Assembly: GCA_030867685.1 (NCBI GenBank)
Contig: JAQOWU010000007.1
Location: 868,001 to 932,000, forward strand
DNA: 64,000 nucleotides
Reading direction: 5' to 3'
Source of the DNA: Wickerhamiella versatilis
Lineage: Eukaryota
Each line of letters opens with the position of its first letter. Position 1 is the stretch's first letter. The position numbers were made by a program, and so were the translations under genes. The notes beneath the pieces were generated by a model. The model saw only the letters and a list, made by a program, of their open reading frames with translations. It was not told the origin of the DNA and made no database searches. This document shows, one piece after another, positions 3,068-46,860 of this stretch.

Positions 3068-5440
3068 ATGAATTTGCCTGATCTCGCTGCGGCCGTAAAG
3101 GACCTGCAGTTAGAGGTCTCTGAGTTACGTTCCGAAGTGAGCGAGCTCCGAGGGCTCGAACCGCATTCGAGCCCCAGTGACTCTAGCTTATTGCGGCGAG
3201 TCGGCACTCGGATGCATCGGATGCTGGATTCGGCATCCTCCAATACACCTTCAATGCATCGTAGGCTAGATTCGGCATCCAGTACACCTTCAAGTTCCCC
3301 GACCCAAGCTCCAGGGCCGTTGACTATCAGGAGAAACTCGAGTCTGAGTCGGTTAGCTCCATTTGACGATGAGGTCGTCGAAATTCCAGAATCTCTACGT
3401 AAAGGAATGCCTTTCCTCAAGGTGACACACAGAAAAAGAGTACCGCGTAAGCTCTACTTAGATGAGGAAGCTGGTGAGCTACGCTGGTCCTCGAAGTCGT
3501 CAGCCAAACTTCTCGTGGATAACATAGTTGAAATACGCGGTGGGGCTGATGCACGAACTTATCGCGAAGAACTAAGAGTGAGTAGTGATCTTGAGTCGCG
3601 TTGGATCACAATTGTTCATCGTCATGTTCATGCTGGTTTCCGGCTGCGAGTGCTTCACCTCGTCGTGGGGTCGCAGTCTGATTTCGACGAACTATTCATA
3701 TGCCTATTACGTCTTGTAAAGTACCGACGTGAGCTTATGAGCGGCCTCGGGATGGCTGGTCCAAGGTTTATAGATACCCATTGGGAGCGCTCGGCGTCTA
3801 ATCAATCGCCAAATGCTCGTCTGTCCTTTGAACAGGTGGTTCGATTTGCTCGCCAATTGCATGTACATTGTGAGGAGGAATATCTCAAACGATTATTTTA
3901 TCAGGCAGATCTTGACAGAGATGATGCACTTTCGTTTATTGAATTCAAAACCTTTGTCTATCTTCTAAAACAACGCTCGGACATATCATCTTTGTACCAG
4001 GAATTCAATGGCGATTGGGGCTTGCTATGTCGAGATATACAGGGCGAGACAGATGCAAAAGTGGGTAATATTGTGAGTGAGGATCGTTTTGGAGAGCTGC
4101 TTCTTGCCCAGCCGACTCATCAAGATCCAGAGGAAGAACAAGATTTGACCAGACCTCTCAATGAGTATTTTATCTCCTCCTCCCACAACACGTATCTTGT
4201 AGGGCGTCAGGTTGTTGATTCTTCCAGTATCGAGACATGTGTGAGAGCCCTCCAAGATGGTTGTCGTTGCATAGAGCTTGATTGCTGGGATGGACCTACC
4301 GAGCCTTTAGTCTACCATGGTCATGGTCTCACTAGGCTTACGGGCTCGCTTGTCTTCCGTGACGTTATAATGGCTGTTCTCAAATATGGGTTCATTTCGT
4401 CAGCTTACCCTCTCATTATCTCTTTAGAAGTTCGTTGTGGAGATGCATGTCAGCTCCGTATTCGCAAAATACTTGAGGAGGTGCTAGGTGATCACCTTGT
4501 AACAGCACCCATCGATGATCGGAAGAACAACACTCTCCCAAGTCCTTCTGAATTAAAACATAGGGTTTTGATTAAAGTCAAATCGACGGAGGATTCAGCT
4601 GGGCTAGAAGATATCAATGTGAGCGATGAAAGCACAGGTTCCTCCAATAGTCTTTCCCCACAGGTTTCGCCGAAAAAGACGCATATTATACCTGAACTTG
4701 CTGAACTGGGAGTATACCTTTCAGGGCGGCGCTTCAAGACCTTCAATGACTCTTATCGTTTGAATACATGTTTTTCATTCTCCGAGCGAACTGCAAGGCG
4801 ACTCAATAGTGAGCAACTGAAACGTCTCACTGAGTTATACATGGTGCGTGTTTATCCTGCAGCATACCGCTTGAACTCGTCGAATTTTGATCCCGGGCCT
4901 TTTTGGCGCCTTGGATTGCAGATGGTTGCCCTCAACTGGCAACGGAGTGATGATGGCATAGCTCTAAATCGTGCATACTTCAGTCCCAAAGTCGGATATG
5001 TTCTGAAACCGTACTGGTTGCGTCCTAATGGGCCGGATCCACCAAATGCAGTCATAAAAAGAGTTTCTGTAACCATCATATCGGCACAACAACTGCCACG
5101 ACCAAGGGAGCTACGAACATCTGAAACCTTTGCCCCATATGTCACAGTATACGCTCTAGGGCTAAGTGATGGTGGCCTTATTCCACAGTGGCGTACCAAT
5201 GCGATACCAAAAAATGGCTTTAATCCAAGATGGGACGCCAAGATTGAGTTCACCTGCTCAGAAAGCGATCTAAATTTTGCATGTTTGAAGTTCGTCATAT
5301 CATCAGGAGATATCTCCTTTGCATTTTATACTACGCGCATAGCAACACTCTTGCCTGGATACCGCCATTTACAACTCCAAGACAGCCGTGGAGAGGATTA
5401 TATTTTCTCCACGCTATTCATTCGAAATGAGATAACGTAG
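3068..5440 (+). CDS. PLC1: phosphoinositide-specific phospholipase C
   Basis: PH and EF-hand region, X-box YFISSSHNTYL...GCRCIELDCWDG, Y-box RVYP...SSNFDP...QMVALNWQ, C2 domain. Confidence 0.95.
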   Translation: MNLPDLAAAVKDLQLEVSELRSEVSELRGLEPHSSPSDSSLLRRVGTRMHRMLDSASSNTPSMHRRLDSASSTPSSSPTQAPGPLTIRRNSSLSRLAPFDDEVVEIPESLRKGMPFLKVTHRKRVPRKLYLDEEAGELRWSSKSSAKLLVDNIVEIRGGADARTYREELRVSSDLESRWITIVHRHVHAGFRLRVLHLVVGSQSDFDELFICLLRLVKYRRELMSGLGMAGPRFIDTHWERSASNQSPNARLSFEQVVRFARQLHVHCEEEYLKRLFYQADLDRDDALSFIEFKTFVYLLKQRSDISSLYQEFNGDWGLLCRDIQGETDAKVGNIVSEDRFGELLLAQPTHQDPEEEQDLTRPLNEYFISSSHNTYLVGRQVVDSSSIETCVRALQDGCRCIELDCWDGPTEPLVYHGHGLTRLTGSLVFRDVIMAVLKYGFISSAYPLIISLEVRCGDACQLRIRKILEEVLGDHLVTAPIDDRKNNTLPSPSELKHRVLIKVKSTEDSAGLEDINVSDESTGSSNSLSPQVSPKKTHIIPELAELGVYLSGRRFKTFNDSYRLNTCFSFSERTARRLNSEQLKRLTELYMVRVYPAAYRLNSSNFDPGPFWRLGLQMVALNWQRSDDGIALNRAYFSPKVGYVLKPYWLRPNGPDPPNAVIKRVSVTIISAQQLPRPRELRTSETFAPYVTVYALGLSDGGLIPQWRTNAIPKNGFNPRWDAKIEFTCSESDLNFACLKFVISSGDISFAFYTTRIATLLPGYRHLQLQDSRGEDYIFSTLFIRNEIT
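3212..3292 (+). repeat. imperfect tandem duplication (42 + 39 bp) in the PLC1 N-terminus
   Basis: atgcatcggatgctggattcggcatcctccaatacaccttca followed by atgcatcgtaggctagattcggcatccagtacaccttca. Confidence 0.85.
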
Positions 5441-5483
5441 TGCTTATGATTTATATTTCCAATTCTATCTATATATGACAAAT

Positions 5484-6548
5484 TTATAGCTTTGAAGGCA
5501 ACCAGTCAATATAGCCGGTCCTTCCACCCTTGTACCATATTTTGCTTGTGTTTGGAGTTAACTCAATGCTATTCTTGAGACGTTTGACAAGGTCCGGGTT
5601 TGAGATAAACGGTCTTCCGAAGGCAATCCCGTCCGCCTCTCCTGTCTCGACGACTTTCATGGCCATATCACGAGAATAGTCCTGGTTCAGGATTAGAGGC
5701 CTGCTAAATACCTCGCGGATTTCCTTGTGCAGTTTTGGCTGAGTGGTTTTGCCAAATGTTCCATTCACACCGGGTTCACGTAGCTCGAGCCAAGCTACGC
5801 CTGCCTCTTGTAGGAATTTTGCTGCCGGAACAAAGACTTTTTCAGGATGTTCTGAATACGTTTTCTGTGTGTCACCATTTGGTGATAGTCTCACACCAAC
5901 CTGAGCAGCACCAATAGAGTTTATTAGTTCCAACGTCACTTCCCGCAAGAACTTAAGCCGGTCCGTGCCGTACACATCGGTGCGATGATTCGTGGAATCC
6001 TTCATAAATTCATCCACAAGGTATCCATTAGCAGCATGGAGCTGAATTCCATCGAATCCAGCCCTGATAGCATTTTTTGCCGCCTTACCATAATCCTCTA
6101 CGACACGCTGAATCTCCGCGTGCGTAAGTGCTTTCGGTGTTTCGGCTGGAAGCTTACCATCATATGTATGGAACAATCCGCCATGACTTATGGCACTGGG
6201 TGCCACAATTTGCCTTCCCGATACGTTTGAATGGGCCATGCGGCCCATATGCCAAAGTTGAGCTACAATCTTACCCCCATTTGCATGAACTGCCTTTGTC
6301 ACCTTCTGCCAACCTGCAACTTGTTCATCATTCCACAGTCCAGGTGTGAAAGGCCAGCCATGACCTTCATTACTTATAGCGGTAGCCTCACTTATGATCA
6401 GACCAGCACTTGACCTCTGGACATAGTACTTAACCATATCATCCGTCGGAACTCCATCTCTTCCTGCTCGTCCTCTCGTTAGAGGTGCCATAAATATACG
6501 ATTGGCACATTCAATAGAGCCTAATTTAATGGGTTCGAATAGAGACAT
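5484..6548 (-). CDS. Old Yellow Enzyme family FMN-dependent ene-reductase, bacterial (NCR/NemA-like) type, with C-terminal SKL
   Basis: True start is probably ATG 6548 (MSLFEPIKLG). Motifs NRIFMAPLTRGRA, GLIISEAT, QLWHMGR, GFDGIQLHAANGYL, FGRPFISNPDL; 354 aa. Confidence 0.95.
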   Translation of the reverse strand: MSLFEPIKLGSIECANRIFMAPLTRGRAGRDGVPTDDMVKYYVQRSSAGLIISEATAISNEGHGWPFTPGLWNDEQVAGWQKVTKAVHANGGKIVAQLWHMGRMAHSNVSGRQIVAPSAISHGGLFHTYDGKLPAETPKALTHAEIQRVVEDYGKAAKNAIRAGFDGIQLHAANGYLVDEFMKDSTNHRTDVYGTDRLKFLREVTLELINSIGAAQVGVRLSPNGDTQKTYSEHPEKVFVPAAKFLQEAGVAWLELREPGVNGTFGKTTQPKLHKEIREVFSRPLILNQDYSRDMAMKVVETGEADGIAFGRPFISNPDLVKRLKNSIELTPNTSKIWYKGGRTGYIDWLPSKL

Positions 6549-6610
6549 CGGTAGGTCGGAGAGGTTTCCCCACTTTTTAGAATTGATTATGTTAGCGACT
6601 GATCTATAAA

Positions 6611-7936
6611 TTAAGCTTGCATTCCTTGCTCGGGCACACGGGGTGAGCCGGCCAGCAGCTCTCGTCTTATCTCCTGGGATATCTGAGGGTGCTGCTGGAG
6701 GCGGCAAACTGCCAAAAGTGCATCTCGTTGATCGTCAGTGATATCATTTTTGTAGCGCTGGGCAAACGTTAGGAAGCTCTGATGCCAAATTACAGGCAGG
6801 GCACGGTCGTGCTCGCGAAATCGTACAAAGTGGAAGACCATGGCATCAACAACCTTGAATGGTAATGCATACTTTTTGTCAAGCAAAACACGTATGAAAA
6901 GAGAATGGGGTCCACTGTAGTCCTCTATTTCTGCAATGTGCAACAGGGCAGCGGCTGAATGCAATGCAGGGATACTTACCCGAGCGAGTATAGAACCGGC
7001 CACAACGGCCTCTCGCAGGGTGCATCCTCCACCCTCTTCCAGTAAGGGGAACAAAAAGCCCTTGAAGAACGCGGCTGGCTTGTACAGGGCCTTTTTCAAC
7101 GCACGGTAGACGTGATAATTCACAGCGTGCTCGGGCCCCCTCACCTGTTCGTGGAATCTATCTAATAATACTTCCTCGATGAATCGATGTGCCTGATTAG
7201 AAGGAAGATTGGAAACGAATAGTTTTGTAGCTTCATAGACGGCCTGGTTTGACCACGACTCGGGACCGGTAACATAAAGTACGTCACGCCAGTTCCTTAG
7301 GCTAGGAACGATCTTGAAGGCTCGAGGTAGACGGCCACTACGATATCGGCTCAGCAGCTCACCTACCTGCGTATAAACATCAATAACTTTAGGCGGAAGC
7401 CGCACACCACCGCTTTCAGCCCCCGGTGGCTGCCAAACGCCAGCCTTCTTGGCCTTGTGCTCAGCGATTTTGGCCATGATCCGATCTGCCAGATTGATGG
7501 GCTCACCGTCCTCGTTTAGTCCCCCTGCGTACCTTTCAAAAACTGCCTCCTCCTCAGGATCGACCTCATAGTGAACGACTTCATCATACTCTTCCTGGTC
7601 TGCTTCAGAGTCGCTTTCTCCCTCTGTAACCCATTGTTCTTCGTCTTCATCAACAAGCTCCTCCGTCCTGGAAGGCATACGAATTTCATTACGCTCCTGC
7701 TCTGCGGACTCTTCAGCAGCCATTTCATCCTGTTGTGAGCGTGCAAGATCCAGAATTTTTCGTGTTGCCTGCGGCGACACATATTCCTCATCAGCATCGG
7801 CATCGATATCGACATCGTCGGTGTCTACATTTTCATTAGCACGCTTGTGTCTAGGGTGCGAGCGGAGATGCCCTTTACTTTCCTCAATGGACTTATAAAG
7901 GGGATCCTGCTTGCGTGCTTTAACGACTTTGGGCAT
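6611..7936 (-). CDS. ENP1: bystin, 40S biogenesis factor
   Basis: LPPKVIDVYTQVGELLSRYRSGRLPRAFK, ALKKALYKPAAFFKG, LDKKYALP, HPQISQEIRREL. Confidence 0.96.
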   Translation of the reverse strand: MPKVVKARKQDPLYKSIEESKGHLRSHPRHKRANENVDTDDVDIDADADEEYVSPQATRKILDLARSQQDEMAAEESAEQERNEIRMPSRTEELVDEDEEQWVTEGESDSEADQEEYDEVVHYEVDPEEEAVFERYAGGLNEDGEPINLADRIMAKIAEHKAKKAGVWQPPGAESGGVRLPPKVIDVYTQVGELLSRYRSGRLPRAFKIVPSLRNWRDVLYVTGPESWSNQAVYEATKLFVSNLPSNQAHRFIEEVLLDRFHEQVRGPEHAVNYHVYRALKKALYKPAAFFKGFLFPLLEEGGGCTLREAVVAGSILARVSIPALHSAAALLHIAEIEDYSGPHSLFIRVLLDKKYALPFKVVDAMVFHFVRFREHDRALPVIWHQSFLTFAQRYKNDITDDQRDALLAVCRLQQHPQISQEIRRELLAGSPRVPEQGMQA

Positions 7937-7997
7937 GTATGAACTTACTTAATTTTTTTCCACTGTTGAAATTCAGCCAGCTAGCTGAGTCATCCAT

Positions 7998-9356
7998 ATG
8001 TCTTTCAAGCGCGGGCGAGAGGAAGATATCAATCCTCCCAAACGTACACGCCGTGCTCTAAATGATCTTAAATCTTTACCAACAGAGAAGCTTCGCGTCT
8101 TCATGTTTGGTTCGAGCGCGCTGTGTGAGTTGGGACTTGGTCCACGTGTAACGGAAGTCAAGCGACCTCGACTCAACCCATTGCTCCCAGTAGACGATGT
8201 GGGAATAGTGGCAGTGGCAACTGGTGGTGCCCACTCTTTAGCCATTGACCATTTGGGCTCTGTGTGGAGCTGGGGCCAGAATGACTGTGGTGCTTTGGGC
8301 AGACCCACCAAGGAGGGCCCTGATGAAATCGACGAGGATAATGATCTGAATGCCAAGGAATCTACACCTGCGCGTGTACAGGGACTGCCTGAACACTTAA
8401 AGTTTGTTGCCATAGGTGCAACTGATAACTGCAGCGTCGCCATCACTGAACAGGGTCGCGTGTGGGCCTGGGGTACATTCATTGATGATGGAAATAAAGC
8501 TTTTGCCCCGGGTGTCAAATTCCAGCGGGAACCAGTCCAGCTCCAGACTCCCCGCAATGTCATTGCAGTCGCTGCTGGAAGAGATCACTTGCTGTTTGTC
8601 AACACGAATGGCCAAGTGTATGCGTGGGGAGTGGGCTCGAGCAACCAGCTGGGTGTCAGGGTCAATCCTTACCTGCGTACGCATACTGTGGGTCCTGTTC
8701 GTGTACCTATCCTTAAGAACATTATCAATGTATTTGCCGGTGACTACCAGAGTTTTGCATTGGATGCACATGGCAATCTGTGGGCATGGGGGTTGAACAA
8801 CTTTGGCCAGCTTGGTATTCCTGAGCCGGTCGGTGCCAATGTTGTCATTGAAAAGCCCATGCAGGTCCCTCAGTTCTGGCCAGAGGGCCAGCGTATCGTA
8901 CAAGTCGCATCAGGATCGCACCACACTGCGTTCCTTACCTCGGAAGGCGAACTTTGGACGGTTGGTGAGACCAATTTCCACCAGCTCGGTATTCCCTACG
9001 ATGAGTCCCTACCGAAAAACACTGTCCGGGAGCAGGACGGTACTCCATCTTATGTGCCGAATGCGGTGCGCGTTAGAAAAGGGAAGAACGAGGATGATAT
9101 TGTGGACTTGCCACCTATGAAGTTCATCGCTGCAGGAACTGATCACACCGTAGCACTTTCAAAGGTCGATGGGACTGCGTGGACCTGGGGCTTCGGAGAG
9201 ATGTACCAGCTTGGACACGGCAAACCTGCTGGAGAGGATGAGCCAGAGGATGAGCAATACCCTCGTCGCATCAAAAACACTGCCACTACTGATGTTAACA
9301 TGTGTTGGGCAGGTGCAGGAGGCCAGTTTTGTGTTATCGCGGCACACACTGCCTAA
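7998..9356 (+). CDS. SRM1: RCC1-repeat Ran guanine nucleotide exchange factor
   Basis: ELGLGP...VKRPRLNPLL, repeated GxxH...VWSWG.N..G.LG units, C-terminal GAGGQF. Confidence 0.88.
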   Translation: MSFKRGREEDINPPKRTRRALNDLKSLPTEKLRVFMFGSSALCELGLGPRVTEVKRPRLNPLLPVDDVGIVAVATGGAHSLAIDHLGSVWSWGQNDCGALGRPTKEGPDEIDEDNDLNAKESTPARVQGLPEHLKFVAIGATDNCSVAITEQGRVWAWGTFIDDGNKAFAPGVKFQREPVQLQTPRNVIAVAAGRDHLLFVNTNGQVYAWGVGSSNQLGVRVNPYLRTHTVGPVRVPILKNIINVFAGDYQSFALDAHGNLWAWGLNNFGQLGIPEPVGANVVIEKPMQVPQFWPEGQRIVQVASGSHHTAFLTSEGELWTVGETNFHQLGIPYDESLPKNTVREQDGTPSYVPNAVRVRKGKNEDDIVDLPPMKFIAAGTDHTVALSKVDGTAWTWGFGEMYQLGHGKPAGEDEPEDEQYPRRIKNTATTDVNMCWAGAGGQFCVIAAHTA

Positions 9357-9435
9357 ACTAAAATTAAAACCAGCCGCTACATGGCCTTTTATCCTGTATA
9401 TTATCGCTATAAAAAGTTTTTTAAGTTGTTCAAGT

Positions 9436-11055
9436 TTAAACTAGACGCACTGTGACATCTTGGGCGGCAAGGTATCGCTTCACATCCGCCACGGAGTACT
9501 CCTTGCGATGGAACATTCCCGCGCCCAGCGCTGCATCAACATTGGTCTTTTCAAATACCTCTGCAAAATGTTCGGGGCATCCTGCACCTGACGAAGCGAT
9601 AACAGGTATGCTCACAGCGTTTTTAATATCCTGAACCAATTCAAGATCAAACCCAGAATTAGTGCCATCCTTGTCGATGCAATTCAATAAGATTTCCCCA
9701 GCGCCTAACTGCTCCACAGCTTGCGCCAGTTCCCAAGCACCTAGGTCGCGTGTTTCACGTCCTCCCTTGACCGTACACTGATACCAGACATACTTTTCGC
9801 CATTCTTACCTGGGTACTTCGTTTCAAATGTGTGATGCTGGACCTCGCTTGGATCTGAGACATACACCCGCTTAGGGTCGATAGATACAACAACCGCCTG
9901 TGCGCCATAGGCACGGGAGATCGTTTCAATTGGGGATTTTCCTGTCTTTCCCTGTGCATAAAAAGACTGAGCTGCATCCACAGCATCGCTACCAATGCTA
10001 ACTTTGTCTGCACCAGATCTGAAATATAGCGAGGCAACATCTAATGCCGGGACCAATTCCCCAGATATCGGATCTTTGACATCCTTGATACCTCCACCAA
10101 TTGTCACGGGGACGAATACCGTCTCTGAGGCTAGATTGAGTACTTGCACCATTGGTTGATCTTTCAAAGGACTGTTTCGAAAGCTCACGATATTCAGAAA
10201 CGTAACCTCATCTGCTCCTTGGTCATAATAGGTTTGTGCAACCTCAACGGGTTTTCCTAGATTCCTAACGCCGGCATCGGATGTCTTCTCCCTTACATCA
10301 TATTGATCTCCTTTTGTGACCACTATATCCCCTTGGTCATTTGCTCTGACATCCAGGCAAGCTATAACCCGTTTGGTGAGTCCCGTGGATTCGGAATTAC
10401 TGATGGGTTCACCCCACTGTCTTCCTTCAAGGAACGAACGAATAACGTCCAGGCCAGCCCGACCCGACTTTTCGGGATGGAATTGAGTGAAAAGCTTGTT
10501 TCCACTGGCAATAGCACCCAGGAAAGTCTCGTCCTTATATGTACACAAGGCGTAATCCCATCCGTCGGGTACAGGTACTGACTTACGGTCAGGCACCATA
10601 ACAGCGTAGGAATGAACAAAATAGTATTTTCTTGCTGGATTTATACCATATAGTTCTCTGTCACCTGATACAGCCATATCATTCCATCCTATATGGGGTA
10701 CTGACTTGTTGGTTGTATTAAACTTTGACGCACCCCCCATCAGCATAGAAAGCCCTTTGCTAGCCGGGGCTTCCGTTGAATTATCAAATATAGATTGTAG
10801 GCCCACACAGATACCCATAAGTGGCTTTTCTGATTTTGCATACTCCAAAATAGGCCCTGTGAGTCCGCGTGCATGAACTTGGTCCATGAAATGGCCAAAA
10901 TTTCCAACTCCAGGAAGTAAGACCTTTTCAGCGTCTTTAAGAGAAGCTGCATCCTCACCACTACGAATAACTACAAGCTCGTAGCCCAGAAACTTGATTG
11001 CATTTTCTAAGCTTCGAATATTTCCGCTGCCCACATCGATCAGATGGACCTTCAT
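9436..11055 (-). CDS. HIS7: imidazole glycerol phosphate synthase (fused HisH-HisF)
   Basis: [48 protein letters not shown]; first in-frame ATG at 11055. Confidence 0.97.
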
Positions 11056-11064
11056 GTGTGCGTC

Positions 11065-11072
11065 TGACTCAT
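11065..11072. promoter_or_regulatory. Gcn4/AP-1-type site TGACTCAT, 10 bp upstream of the HIS7 ATG
   Basis: Exact consensus match at an amino-acid biosynthesis gene. Confidence 0.5.
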
Positions 11073-11255
11073 TCAATCGACCTTAGTTTCTAGATCTATA
11101 GAATCAGTCAACGGCCAGCAACTCGAGGTACTACATATCATAAGGCGTTTATATATTGTATATCCATTTTGCTTCTTCTTCAAACGTAAATTTAATTGTG
11201 GTAAAAGTTTCTCACTTATGTACTAAATCGCTAAATTCAGGTCAGGTTCACAGCT

Positions 11256-12428
<1,173 letters not shown>

Positions 12429-44862: not shown

Positions 44863-46860
44863 CTACATGCTTAGCACAATGAGACCTTGTACGGGGTCTA
44901 ACTCTAACATTTCATTGCAAATAATTTGATCACCCTCAAAAAGTCGTGTGTGTGGCAGTACAGAAACCTCCACTTCAAGATCAATATCACGACACCAGGC
45001 CTTAGCTAAACCAGGGTAAGTCGCCGGCTGTAATATTATGCACCTAAATATGTGGAAGGCACTAGACACCTTAAGCTCTTCCTGGAGACCACTTAGAACT
45101 TCGTATCTTGAAAATCTTTCCTCAAAAAGATCTGCCAACCACCAGTTCGGCAATATACTTCTTTGAACGTGCGAATCCAGCGTTTCCTGTGCTGTTAAGC
45201 TACGTGGTTTCAAAAGCTGCCGCTGAGTGAGGAGGGCCAGTGAGCTATCAAAAGGTCGGCCAACTCCGCCGTCTTTTGGTATCTCCAACCCTTTTTTTTT
45301 ACCATACACTTGAGAAAGCTGTCCAGCTATTAAATTAGCACGGACTGCTGCCTCGGTCCCGCCGAGGAATTCATATGCCGGAATGTTGTCCGGCGATGTG
45401 GCTAAGAAGGCTTCTATTAACCACAAAGAATGCTGATAACTTTCCTGGAACTTATCATTCATATTTTTATCGAAATACTGCGGTTTTATTGACCGCGTAG
45501 TGCAGGATACAAGCCCGACTTCGACGTCATTCGGGTCCCACTGAAAATTCTTGTCAGTTGGGATTCGCAAGGATAATGCGATAGAGGGCCGCTCATCGGA
45601 AAAGGACATGGATTCCCTGGTACTTTGATCTATAAGTGGTAATTTATGGTAAGTACCAGCCCTTACAGACCGTGCCCGCGTGCCTACGCCACGGACACCC
45701 AACACCGACTTTATTGGAACATAAGGAATATAAAGCGCAACATCCCATCCATTATCAGCACCCGGATCTACAGATATTGCTATATCGTCTGCAAGGGACC
45801 ATGCCTCGGCAGCATCAAGCGTTGAAACGTTCTGAACTGCAGTTTTTGGCGCCATATTTGTTGTGATTCCATCATCTTGAGTGAGCATATGGAGAAGAGG
45901 TGTGTCTCCAAGCAAACGATCGCTTAATGCCACGGATGCATCTGCTTCACCACGGTCTGGATATACCTTTGTCAATATTGCTTCAGCCGCACGACCCAAA
46001 CGAGCATCAGACCAAATAGCATAGTGCTCTAGGAACCGGCGCAGCTGGAATCCTATACCACTAGTGATATTTGGGTCCGCCCGTAACTGAGCTCCTCCGT
46101 GATCAAGCTCTTCTTCCGTGAGTGCATACATCACTTTATGCACGACGTCCACGGTTGAAAAGCTTGCAGCGACAAAAGGGCCTCTCCGCCAGCGTACAAA
46201 GCCAAGTTCATGATATGCTGCTGCTAAATATGTTGCCAACTGAATGTCAGCAGGCAGTTGCGAAGGTGGAGAAATAGGTTTAACAGAATGTCTAGCGCTG
46301 TTCTGCAGGTGGAGGGACCAGACTCTTCTACAGATATCCTGAAAGTCGACAGCGCGAACTCGTTTCTGCAGCGCTGACTGGGCATAGATCACCCGTAAGT
46401 AGTTGCGAGTTTCAGCAACATGCGACCACGCACCGGCGACAAGTCCCTGGAGAGCCGAAGCAACTTCAGAAGAATTTAAATGCAAAGCAGGTTCGACCCA
46501 GCTTTTGAGAGCCACTGAAACATTTTTTACTGCATGGGAAGATCGTCTTCCATTCAAGGAAATCAGATCGAAATAAGGGCCTACTGGCGCCCAGGATACC
46601 AACCCGAATTCCACAAGCCCATTACGACCAACAACTTCAACTGCGTCGCCTGCATCAACTTCTACTGGGCTTATTATCGTGCGCATAGGAGTCTTTGATG
46701 GCGCTAGGTTTGCCGATGTTACACTCACGGGCTTCTTCAACTGTTGATAATATGCATCGCTTGCAGGCCATAAAGGGACCCCTGTGTATAATGAAGGGCC
46801 AAAAGAACCGTATTTTGGAAGAAGGGGATTAAATTTCAGGAACCGCGGCGGCTTTTGCAT
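44863..46860 (-). CDS. 665-aa protein, probably a degenerate RNase II/RNB (Dss1/Cyt-4-like) family member
   Basis: Long ORF. STLDAAEAWSLADDIAISVD resembles RNB motif I; GRPFDSSLALLTQRQL may be a degenerate TSPxRRxxDL motif. Confidence 0.6.
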   Translation of the reverse strand: MQKPPRFLKFNPLLPKYGSFGPSLYTGVPLWPASDAYYQQLKKPVSVTSANLAPSKTPMRTIISPVEVDAGDAVEVVGRNGLVEFGLVSWAPVGPYFDLISLNGRRSSHAVKNVSVALKSWVEPALHLNSSEVASALQGLVAGAWSHVAETRNYLRVIYAQSALQKRVRAVDFQDICRRVWSLHLQNSARHSVKPISPPSQLPADIQLATYLAAAYHELGFVRWRRGPFVAASFSTVDVVHKVMYALTEEELDHGGAQLRADPNITSGIGFQLRRFLEHYAIWSDARLGRAAEAILTKVYPDRGEADASVALSDRLLGDTPLLHMLTQDDGITTNMAPKTAVQNVSTLDAAEAWSLADDIAISVDPGADNGWDVALYIPYVPIKSVLGVRGVGTRARSVRAGTYHKLPLIDQSTRESMSFSDERPSIALSLRIPTDKNFQWDPNDVEVGLVSCTTRSIKPQYFDKNMNDKFQESYQHSLWLIEAFLATSPDNIPAYEFLGGTEAAVRANLIAGQLSQVYGKKKGLEIPKDGGVGRPFDSSLALLTQRQLLKPRSLTAQETLDSHVQRSILPNWWLADLFEERFSRYEVLSGLQEELKVSSAFHIFRCIILQPATYPGLAKAWCRDIDLEVEVSVLPHTRLFEGDQIICNEMLELDPVQGLIVLSM

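What the first reader, a model, noticed from the sequence alone, without database searches (positions are those of the whole stretch)
5484..6548. Bacterial-type Old Yellow Enzyme, probably transferred from Alphaproteobacteria
Seen: an intronless 354-aa OYE with MSLFEPI.LG, MAPLTRGRA.RD.VPT, GWPFTPGLW, HMGRM.HSNVSG.Q.VAPSA, HTYDGK, DEF.KDSTNHR, RLSPNG..Q...SEHPE.VFVPAAK.L, GTFGKTTQPKL..EIR.VF..PLILNQDY. Knowledge (recalled, not aligned): these blocks closely track the Zymomonas mobilis NCR / acetic-acid-bacterial / sphingomonad ene-reductases, not the roughly 400-aa fungal Oye2/Oye3 type. Inference: a bacterium-to-yeast transfer inserted between two ancestral genes (PLC1, ENP1). Such transfers are known to be frequent in the Wickerhamiella/Starmerella clade. 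Eukaryotic genes 43 and 62 bp away argue against contamination.
Basis: partly seen in the sequence, partly recalled or inferred. Interest (0 to 1): 0.85.

Follow-up and report, generated by a model that had tools for sequence, protein, structure and literature searches.

The report
Bacterial ene-reductase gene acquired by yeast
A budding yeast carries an intact, apparently transcribed Old Yellow Enzyme gene that came from acetic-acid-type bacteria and sits between two old yeast neighbour genes; this is a clean example of a kind of gene transfer already known to be common in some yeasts.

Summary
Window 5484-6548 (minus strand) is an intronless 354-aa Old Yellow Enzyme. It lies 43 bp from PLC1 and 62 bp from ENP1.

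All 36 organism-named proteins among its 120 best relatives are bacterial, and 26 of them are Acetobacteraceae. In a maximum-likelihood tree the yeast copies form one clade (100/100). That clade sits inside a supported group (98/93) dominated by Acetobacteraceae. Grouping the yeast copies with other eukaryotic OYEs is rejected (p-AU 0.0002).

The gene is not contamination. An independent 4.9-kb contig and RNA-seq reads cover both junctions, and its composition matches its neighbours.

A distant yeast contig keeps the same five-gene order with only 136 bp where the OYE sits here.

The catalytic His/Asn/Tyr residues are intact. The predicted fold matches Gluconobacter GluER at TM 0.98.

One new point: this lineage and its closest relative evolved a C-terminal -SKL, a peroxisomal targeting motif found in 0 of 116 bacterial relatives.

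The finding is a new member of a well-known kind, of moderate interest.

The parts
5484..6548 (-). Coding sequence of the acquired OYE/ene-reductase: 354 codons plus a stop at 5484-5486, with no intron.
   Evidence: PF00724, 259 bits; 471 bits to Gluconobacter 3wjs; pLDDT 93.2; TM 0.98 to GluER 6o08
6021..6038 (-). Codons H171-A-A-N174-G-Y176. The His/Asn pair binds the substrate carbonyl and the Tyr donates the proton.
   Evidence: translates to HAANGY; aligns to NCR H172/N175/Y177; residue roles from passages of PMC13182226
5958..5978 (-). DVYG|TDR: the site of a 3-residue deletion relative to bacteria (DEYGGSxENR). All yeast copies share it.
   Evidence: (deletion in 11 of 11 yeast rows, 0 of 130 bacterial rows, 0 of 6 outgroup rows)
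5487..5495 (-). The last three codons, S-K-L: a canonical PTS1-type C-terminal tripeptide.
   Evidence: WLPSKL*; 0 of 116 bacterial hits end in [SAC][KRH][LM]; P0002 also ends in SKL, while P0003/P0004 end in EAK/EAE; residues 351-354 have mean pLDDT 57, so the tail is flexible
5441..5483 (.). 43-bp spacer between the PLC1 stop and the OYE stop (tail to tail).
   Evidence: sequence read
6549..6610 (.). 62-bp spacer between the ENP1 stop and the OYE start (same strand). Any OYE promoter must overlap the 3' end of ENP1.
   Evidence: (RNA read depth 34 and 27 at position 6558; strain-specific 1-nt indel at 6558)
3068..5440 (+). PLC1 (PI-PLC X, Y and C2 domains), the native left neighbour.
   Evidence: (PLC1 is adjacent to ENP1 in 6 of 79 loci)
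6611..7936 (-). ENP1 (bystin), the native right neighbour.
7998..12377 (.). The rest of the conserved block: RCC1/SRM1-like (7998-9356, +), HIS7-like (9436-11055, -) and DAHP synthase (11256-12377, -).
   Evidence: (same order and orientation in L048; DAHPsyn-HIS7-RCC1-ENP1 also in L038, L039 and L041)

Best explanation
This is a xenolog: a complete bacterial class-I ('classical') Old Yellow Enzyme gene of the GluER/NCR subgroup. It came from an acetic-acid bacterium (Acetobacteraceae) or from a bacterium carrying that family's allele. It integrated once into the short convergent spacer between the 3' ends of ENP1 and PLC1 in an ancestor of this yeast and of at least three related sequence clusters. 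Little more than the ORF itself was inserted (1065 of the 1170 bp between the two stops). Its base composition has since become yeast-like, it has been kept under purifying selection, and it appears to be transcribed. The protein most likely works as an FMN-dependent, NAD(P)H-driven ene-reductase. His171 and Asn174 hold the activating carbonyl of an alpha,beta-unsaturated aldehyde, ketone, maleimide or nitro compound. Reduced FMN delivers a hydride to C-beta, and Tyr176 protonates C-alpha. In this lineage and its closest relative the bacterial-type C-terminus (…YPxAR/K) changed by substitutions to …PSKL, which probably sends the enzyme into peroxisomes. What is shown: the gene, its bacterial affinity, its chromosomal linkage, the empty ancestral site, the intact catalytic residues and the fold. 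What is inferred: the exact donor, the timing, the enzyme activity, the substrates, the peroxisomal location and the source of the promoter.
For: Affinity to bacteria:
- The best named hit is Acetobacter ascendens (63% identity, 495 bits). All 36 organism-named hits among the best 120 are bacterial.
- This gives an Alien-Index-like lower bound of about 43, from ln(2.5e-124) minus ln(5e-143), because no fungal name appears above rank 120.

Tree (76 rows, IQ-TREE PMSF):
- The 6 yeast rows form one clade (100/100).
- That clade lies inside a 55-row clade (98/93) with 23 named Acetobacteraceae rows, and outside Zymomonas and Sphingomonas.
- The AU test rejects yeast plus other eukaryotes as one clade (delta lnL 80.1, p 0.0002).

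Single origin:
- A 3-residue deletion is present in 11 of 11 yeast rows and 0 of 136 other rows.

Chromosomal linkage:
- The protein was seen on 8 contigs, the longest 873,793 bp.
- Of 24 runs listed, 20 rows hold the stretch or a part of it, 17 of them half its words or more; the holders' studies number 12.
- The X17 contig (4,910 bp, 65 differences) spans PLC1-OYE-ENP1. X5 holds it in an 80-kb contig. RNA reads X23 and X24 cover 30 of 30 bins with no joints.

Empty site:
- L048 has DAHPsyn-HIS7-RCC1-ENP1-PLC1 in the same order and orientation. The ENP1 and PLC1 stops are 136 bp apart and there is no OYE.
- OYE is found in 0 of 79 ENP1 loci. PLC1 is adjacent to ENP1 in 6 of 79.

Amelioration:
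- GC3 is 0.424 against 0.454 +/- 0.036 in 33 neighbouring ORFs (z -0.84). Codon fit has z +0.38.

Selection:
- Of the 8 strain differences listed in 5484-5862 (7 codons), 5 codons change synonymously and 2 do not.
- OYE is 84% identical to its closest relative, against 88% for ENP1 on a contig of the same length (82,445 bp).

Function:
- H171, N174, Y176, T24, W65, W99, R220 and Y339 match NCR.
- AlphaFold gives pLDDT 93.2. Foldseek gives GluER 6o08 at TM 0.98 and rmsd 0.8 A.

Transcription:
- RNA read depth over the OYE is about 60-100, like PLC1.
Against: - No organism-named fungal OYE could be put in the tree. Separation from fungal OYEs therefore rests on their absence from the top 120 hits, their absence from the best 60 PDB chains, and non-fungal eukaryotic stand-ins (Corallochytrium, Vitis).
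- The position inside the 55-row clade is an unresolved polytomy. Carnimonas (2 rows) and Burkholderia (1 row) also sit there, so the donor genus, and even the donor family, is not fixed.
- The three other yeast-like clusters (P0002-P0004) are unnamed and their DNA context could not be fetched. Calling them yeasts rests on the shared deletion, their monophyly and contig sizes.
- The empty site was found only in distant yeasts (ENP1 40-47% identical), not in close relatives.
- The RNA runs are unstranded, come from another strain (reads 95-99% alike), and no silent control stretch was laid. Carry-over of genomic DNA is not excluded.
- The codon-usage test has little power because this genome has weak codon bias, and one Acetobacteraceae homologue (L001) fits just as well.
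Confidence: 0.88

Rival explanations
1. Assembly artefact or contamination: a bacterial fragment wrongly joined to yeast DNA.
For: The gene is intronless, bacterial-like and only 43 and 62 bp from its neighbours.
Against: The same PLC1-OYE-ENP1 stretch is present in 17 rows holding at least half its words (holders' studies: 12). It lies in one piece in an independent 4,910-bp contig with 65 differences, and RNA reads cover it continuously with no joints. GC and GC3 are those of the neighbours. The protein is seen on contigs up to 873,793 bp.
Confidence: 0.01
2. Vertical inheritance: an old fungal OYE subfamily that happens to resemble bacterial enzymes and was lost from most yeasts.
For: No named fungal OYE could be included in the tree. 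OYEs are widespread in fungi (established knowledge). 84 of the 120 best hits are unnamed.
Against: The yeast clade is nested within, not beside, a bacterial radiation (98/93). Eukaryote monophyly is rejected (p 0.0002). Identity to Acetobacter is 63%, against 35-36% to the eukaryotic OYEs sampled. Only 4 clusters at 90% identity in about 5.8 billion hold it. The syntenic site is empty in L048.
Confidence: 0.04
3. Transfer in the other direction (yeast to bacteria), or transfer through an intermediate such as a filamentous fungus or another bacterial family carrying an Acetobacteraceae-type allele.
For: Carnimonas and Burkholderia rows nested in the same clade show that this gene moves between bacteria. 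The sister group of the yeast clade is unresolved.
Against: The yeast clade is a single long-stemmed tip group (stem 0.55) inside dozens of bacterial lineages. Successive outgroups (Tanticharoenia, Acetobacter estunensis, Sphingomonas, beta- and gamma-proteobacteria) are all bacterial. No fungal name appears among the hits.
Confidence: 0.06
4. The gene is a decaying relic without function.
For: It has only a 62-bp upstream spacer and no evident promoter of its own. No activity data exist.
Against: The 354-codon frame is intact. Catalytic and FMN-contacting residues are conserved. Strain differences are mostly synonymous. It is 84% conserved with the closest relative, similar to the essential ENP1 at 88%. 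RNA read depth is similar to PLC1.
Confidence: 0.03

Closest known systems
GluER / GYE of Gluconobacter oxydans (PDB 6o08, 6myw, 3wjs) and NCR of Zymomonas mobilis (PDB 4a3u)
   Same: Length is about 355-360 aa. Sequence scores are 471 and 441 bits over residues 2-349. The model superposes at TM 0.98 and rmsd 0.8-0.9 A. The H/N/Y catalytic triad and other active-site residues are identical to NCR.
   Different: Identity is 57-61%. There is a 3-residue deletion after Gly194. The C-terminus is -SKL. The gene is encoded in a yeast chromosome. Activity is untested.
Bacterial xenologs of the Wickerhamiella/Starmerella yeasts, such as Acetobacteraceae-derived ADH1 and SUC2 (eLife 2018, PMC5897096, passages read) and about 600 xenologs in three species (Commun Biol 2026, PMC13376923; abstract, section 7 and passages read)
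   Same: A metabolic enzyme gene from bacteria. Acetobacteraceae are the nearest donors. Identity to the putative donors is below 70%, as that paper reports for all its cases. The gene is integrated among native genes and shared by related species.
   Different: An OYE or ene-reductase is not named in the main texts searched. It may be listed in their supplementary tables, which were closed. The host's membership of that clade is unverified here. The gene lies in a conserved housekeeping block; whether that is a chromosome-end domain could not be judged.
Fungal OYE2/OYE3 (Saccharomyces) type
   Same: Same Pfam family, same fold and same chemistry.
   Different: No yeast OYE1-3 chain is among the best 60 PDB matches, which reach down to 216 bits, against 471 bits for Gluconobacter. 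The figure of about 400 aa for the fungal type is recalled, not measured here.
Plant OPR3, a peroxisomal OYE
   Same: An OYE-family enzyme carrying a C-terminal PTS1. AtOPR3 is called peroxisomal in the abstract of bioRxiv 10.64898/2026.05.27.728186, seen in a search listing.
   Different: Only about 35% identical (Vitis OPR). The targeting signal has an independent origin. The substrate here is unknown.

Membership tests
Old Yellow Enzyme family (Pfam PF00724, Oxidored_FMN) | The profile match is above the curated cut-off over the whole domain. | tested here: met
   259.1 bits against a cut-off of 27; residues 2-329 match profile positions 1-340 of 342
Old Yellow Enzyme family (Pfam PF00724, Oxidored_FMN) | An (alpha/beta)8 TIM-barrel fold like solved OYEs. 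| tested here: met
   AlphaFold pLDDT 93.2, pTM 0.93; Foldseek TM 0.98 and rmsd 0.8 A to GluER 6o08
Classical (class I) OYE, GluER/NCR subgroup | A His/Asn substrate-binding pair and a Tyr proton donor (NCR H172/N175/Y177). | tested here: met
   H171, N174 and Y176 align. HAANGY is at 6021-6038. Residue roles come from passages of PMC13182226.
Classical (class I) OYE, GluER/NCR subgroup | FMN binding and NAD(P)H-dependent reduction of activated C=C bonds. | not testable with these tools
   Inferred only, from 57-61% identity to characterised enzymes.
N-ethylmaleimide reductase NemA subfamily (NCBIfam NF007899) | A score above the curated cut-off. | tested here: not met
   302 bits against a cut-off of 403. 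It is a relative of NemA, not a member of that subfamily.
Fungal OYE2/OYE3 type | Closer to yeast OYE1-3 than to bacterial OYEs. | tested here: not met
   No OYE1/2/3 chain is among the best 60 PDB matches (all at least 216 bits), while Gluconobacter scores 471 bits. No fungal name appears among the 36 named hits of the top 120.
Bacterium-to-yeast horizontally acquired gene (xenolog) | Nested with support inside a bacterial clade; the vertical alternative is rejected. | tested here: met
   98/93 clade of 55 rows; yeast clade 100/100. AU p 0.0002 against eukaryote monophyly. Caveat: there are no named fungal OYEs in the tree.
Bacterium-to-yeast horizontally acquired gene (xenolog) | Physically linked to native eukaryotic genes in independent data. 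| tested here: met
   (X17 contig; X5 contig; RNA reads over 30 of 30 bins; no joints)
Bacterium-to-yeast horizontally acquired gene (xenolog) | Absent from the orthologous site in other yeasts. | tested here: met
   L048 has the same 5-gene order with a 136-bp spacer. OYE is in 0 of 79 ENP1 loci. Only distant yeasts were available.
Wickerhamiella/Starmerella-clade xenolog | The host belongs to the W/S clade. | tested here: inconclusive
   The nearest named ENP1 proteins are Sugiyamaella, Blastobotrys, Nadsonia and Trichomonascus at 53-55%. No W/S name appears. No whole genome is held.
PTS1-targeted peroxisomal matrix protein | A C-terminal tripeptide fitting (S/A/C)(K/R/H)(L/M) on an exposed tail. 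The consensus is established knowledge, recalled here. | tested here: met
   The protein ends in -SKL. The tail has pLDDT 57. The motif is absent from 116 of 116 bacterial hits.
PTS1-targeted peroxisomal matrix protein | Pex5-dependent import into peroxisomes. | not testable with these tools
   No localisation data.

The most novel reading that the evidence does not exclude
After the transfer, the bacterial cytosolic ene-reductase was re-addressed to a eukaryotic organelle. In the sub-lineage of this yeast and its closest relative, three or so substitutions turned the bacterial-type tail (…DYPEAK in the other yeast copies, …DYPxAR in bacteria) into …D-W-(L)-P-S-K-L, a canonical PTS1. The enzyme would then work in peroxisomes, for example on reactive 2-enals, enones or enoyl compounds arising from fatty-acid oxidation. 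In addition, with only 62 bp between the ENP1 stop and its ATG, the gene may be expressed from ENP1 read-through or from a promoter inside ENP1. That would make it a compact, operon-like solution to expressing a promoterless bacterial ORF.
Probability: 0.4. Interest if true: 0.55.

Novelty: new member of a known kind. Interest (0 to 1): 0.4.

Why it matters
It is a well-documented case of bacterium-to-yeast transfer. The donor family, the insertion point (to within about 100 bp), the ancestral empty site, the single origin (a shared indel) and the later adaptation (composition, and a possible organelle signal) can all be read from sequence.

GluER and NCR relatives are workhorse biocatalysts. 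A version that has long worked in a yeast may express well in yeast hosts.

If the -SKL signal is functional, the case shows how an acquired bacterial enzyme gains a eukaryotic address by a few point changes.

The phenomenon itself (many bacterial metabolic genes in some floral and fermentation yeasts, with Acetobacteraceae as recurrent donors) is already established, so the finding adds an instance rather than a principle.

Tried and rejected
- **Whole genome:** none is held. I therefore could not look for native OYE paralogues, other xenologs or clade markers.
- **Named fungal OYEs for the tree:**
  - Naming 10 representative hits gave one holozoan and one sphingomonad name.
  - PDB searches with three candidates and the last homology search, with the holozoan protein, returned plants, algae and cyanobacteria, not fungi.
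- **1.84-billion representative search:** it carries no names and served only as a source of outgroups.
- **ESM Atlas:** the three best clusters shown are 'alkene reductase' (64-100% of their labelled members bacterial). By the tool's own caution this is not evidence of transfer.
- **FastTree:** it placed the yeast clade beside unnamed P0076 and the bee/insect-associated group (Bombella, Saccharibacter, Oecophyllibacter). The careful tree did not uphold this (polytomy), so no donor genus is claimed.
- **Run index:** no RNA holder listed.
- **Read begin/end pile-ups near 6616 and 6637 (5 molecules each):** too weak to call a transcript end.
- **Loose ends at 6558:** these are a 1-nt strain indel, not a splice or a transcript start.
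- **Earlier findings of the scan:** nothing relevant.
- **Contig-length matching:** I tried to link the 67-68% OYE clusters to ENP1 hits this way and found no match.
- **OYE paralogue in the window:** none found.
- **Papers:** in the top-ranked rows listed by three searches (25 of 88, 20 of 236 and 15 of 93 papers), no paper holds both a Wickerhamiella/Starmerella term and an OYE, ene-reductase or flavin-oxidoreductase term. The main texts of PMC13376923 and PMC5897096 hold none of 'flavin', 'OYE', 'alkene reductase' or 'ethylmaleimide'. Their supplementary gene lists were closed and may contain this gene.
Full report
**1. Observation**

Window 5484..6548 (minus strand) is an uninterrupted 354-codon ORF. 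Its product matches Pfam PF00724 at 259 bits, against a cut-off of 27.

It lies tail to tail with PLC1 (3068..5440, plus strand; PI-PLC X, Y and C2 domains), 43 bp away. It lies head to tail behind ENP1/bystin (6611..7936, minus strand), 62 bp away.

**2. What the protein is**

Among solved structures the best sequence matches are:
- Gluconobacter enzymes 3wjs, 6o08 and 6myw, at 469-471 bits.
- Zymomonas NCR 4a3u, at 441 bits.

No Saccharomyces OYE1-3 chain is among the 60 listed, which reach down to 216 bits.

An AlphaFold model built on 46 sequences has pLDDT 93.2 and pTM 0.93. It superposes on GluER at TM 0.98 and rmsd 0.8 A, and on NCR at 0.98 and 0.9 A.

Aligned to NCR, the residues H172, N175 and Y177 are H171, N174 and Y176 here. 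A docking study describes the first two as holding the substrate carbonyl and the third as protonating C-alpha (PMC13182226, passages). T24, W65, Q97, W99, R220, F265 and Y339 are also identical to NCR. HAANGY is encoded at 6021-6038.

The NCBIfam NemA subfamily model scores 302 bits, below its cut-off of 403. The protein is therefore a GluER/NCR-type classical OYE, not a NemA orthologue. Enzyme activity is inferred, not shown.

**3. Where it came from**

In about 5.8 billion clustered proteins, the first hits after the query are three unnamed clusters at 84%, 68% and 67% identity. Below them, every hit that carries an organism name is bacterial. That is 36 of the 120 rows listed:
- 26 Acetobacteraceae.
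- 4 Sphingomonas and 2 Zymomonas.
- 2 Carnimonas, 1 Burkholderia and 1 unclassified alphaproteobacterium.

The best named hit is Acetobacter ascendens, at 63% identity and 495 bits.

A careful ML tree of 76 rows (IQ-TREE, LG+C20 PMSF) gives these results:
- The six yeast-type rows form one clade (100/100, stem length 0.55).
- That clade lies inside a 55-row clade supported at 98/93. The 55-row clade contains 23 named Acetobacteraceae rows, the Carnimonas and Burkholderia rows, and 23 unnamed rows.
- Zymomonas, Tanticharoenia, Acetobacter estunensis, Sphingomonas and beta/gamma-proteobacteria branch successively outside it.
- Inside the 55-row clade the position of the yeast clade is unresolved.

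An earlier FastTree placed the yeast clade next to the insect- and flower-associated acetic-acid bacteria. The careful tree did not uphold this.

Forcing the yeast rows together with the two other eukaryotic OYEs available (a holozoan and a grapevine OPR) costs 80.1 log-likelihood units and is rejected (p-AU 0.0002).

A rare change supports a single origin. All 11 yeast-type sequences lack three residues (DEYGGSxENR becomes D(V/E)YG-TDR). None of 130 bacterial rows and none of 6 outgroup rows do (site at 5958-5978).

Weak point: I could not obtain any organism-named fungal OYE. The exclusion of a fungal OYE clade therefore rests on the absence of fungal names among the top hits and top PDB chains, not on an explicit fungal branch in the tree.

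**4. It is really in the yeast chromosome**

- The protein was seen on 8 contigs, the longest 873,793 bp, and ENP1 shows the same figures.
- The 2.2-kb stretch across both junctions is held, at half its sampled words or more, by 17 of 24 runs listed; the 20 rows that hold it or a part come from 12 studies. They include isolates labelled organism A and food or fermentation metagenomes.
- Laid on window 4400-7600, an independent 4,910-bp contig (X17, organism B label; 65 differences and 1 gap) covers the whole stretch. So does an 80-kb contig identical to the window (X5), which may be the source of this DNA.
- About 2,000 RNA-seq reads per run (X23 and X24; 95-99% alike, so from another strain) cover 30 of 30 bins with no joints.
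- GC is 0.471 and GC3 is 0.424. These fall within the range of the 33 other ORFs of at least 200 aa (GC3 0.454 +/- 0.036), and codon fit has z +0.38. This test has little power here, because codon bias is weak.
- The rest of the window encodes ordinary eukaryotic genes.

**5. The insertion site**

I scanned metagenome contigs with an ENP1 alignment and obtained 79 loci. tblastn of the window's proteins against them gave:
- OYE in 0 of 79 loci.
- PLC1 directly beside ENP1 in 6 of 79 loci.

L048 comes from a 102,955-bp contig of an unplaced budding yeast, whose best named ENP1 matches are about 53%. It has DAHP synthase, HIS7, RCC1/SRM1, ENP1 and PLC1 in the same order and orientation as the window. 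The convergent ENP1 and PLC1 stops are 136 bp apart, with no ORF between them. In the window the two stops are 1,170 bp apart, and 1,065 of those bases are the OYE ORF.

Five Scheffersomyces/Candida-like loci have PLC1 immediately upstream of ENP1. Three Lachancea-like loci keep DAHPsyn-HIS7-RCC1-ENP1. From memory only, ARO4, HIS7 and ENP1 are also neighbours in S. cerevisiae.

So PLC1 and ENP1 are old neighbours, and the OYE is the derived insert. The empty sites seen are in distant yeasts only, because close relatives could not be fetched.

The closest relative (OYE 84% identical) probably has the same linkage. Its OYE and its 88%-identical ENP1 both report a longest contig of 82,445 bp. This is an inference.

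**6. Kept and used**

In the part of the gene for which strain differences were printed (5484-5862), there are 8 nucleotide changes in 7 codons. Five codons change synonymously and two do not (H234Y and L330W). The flanking PLC1 shows 26 synonymous and 4 non-synonymous changes.

RNA read depth over the OYE (about 60-100, both orientations summed) is like that over PLC1 and about half that over ENP1. Depth at 6558, 10 nt upstream of the ATG, is 34 and 27 in the two runs.

The libraries are unstranded and I could not lay a silent control. Transcription is therefore likely but not proven, and read-through from ENP1 can be neither shown nor excluded.

**7. A possible eukaryotic refinement**

The protein ends in -SKL, as does the 84% relative. 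The 67-68% yeast copies end in …YPEAK or …YPEAE, like the bacterial …YPxAR. None of 116 bacterial hits ends in [SAC][KRH][LM] (one search gives the same result over 277 proteins, with two unrelated exceptions).

The tail is predicted to be flexible (pLDDT 57 for the last residues).

SKL is the textbook PTS1 (established knowledge, recalled). I therefore think peroxisomal import is about 40-50% likely. It would parallel plant OPR3, but with an independent origin.

**8. Comparison with what is known**

Bacterial genes are known to be numerous in Wickerhamiella/Starmerella yeasts. Acetobacteraceae are donors of ADH1 and SUC2 (PMC5897096, passages). About 600 xenologs are described in three species, always below 70% identity to their donors (PMC13376923: abstract, section 7 and passages).

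This gene fits that pattern at 63% identity. I found no main-text mention of an OYE or ene-reductase among these xenologs. The supplementary lists were closed, so it may already be catalogued.

I could not confirm that the host belongs to that clade. ENP1 only places it near Sugiyamaella, Blastobotrys and Trichomonascus-type yeasts.

**9. Verdict**

The finding is a new member of a known kind, of moderate interest (0.4). The PTS1 gain and the minimal-spacer insertion are the only parts that go beyond the expected.

Noticed in passing
window 3068-12377; L048 4894-14492; L038, L039, L041, L029, L030, L032, L033, L035: The block DAHP synthase-HIS7-RCC1/SRM1-ENP1-PLC1 is conserved in order and orientation between this yeast and a distant unplaced budding yeast (L048). 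Parts of it persist in Lachancea-like loci. In Scheffersomyces-like loci it is rearranged to HIS7-PLC1-ENP1.
   Followed up: partly
tree (P0050, P0056, P0063): Two Carnimonas (gammaproteobacteria) sequences and one Burkholderia multivorans sequence are nested inside the Acetobacteraceae OYE clade. This ene-reductase therefore also seems to move between bacterial classes.
   Followed up: no
L002 and L011 (same contig of Acetobacteraceae bacterium ESL0709, about 5 kb apart): This bee-associated acetic-acid bacterium carries two diverged copies of the gene close together on one contig (55% and 54% identical to the query).
   Followed up: no
window 6558: A 1-nt indel in other strains lies 10 nt upstream of the ATG. 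It opens an in-frame upstream start, which explains the 362-aa gene call P0121 (extra MGKPLDLP). It is probably an annotation artefact, not a real N-terminal extension.
   Followed up: partly
window 5042-5255 (inside PLC1): RNA read depth drops to about a quarter. This coincides with many strain differences (the cleanest reads carry 5-6 other differences). The likely cause is reads failing the 95% likeness filter, not a feature of the transcript.
   Followed up: no
window 44863-46860 (minus strand): A 665-aa ORF with no Pfam match at E <= 0.001. It is the only large ORF in the window without a recognised domain.
   Followed up: no
proteins P0190 and P0131 (representative library): Two unrelated, unnamed OYE-family proteins (397 and 720 aa) also end in -SKL. 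PTS1-type ends may therefore have arisen more than once in the family.
   Followed up: no
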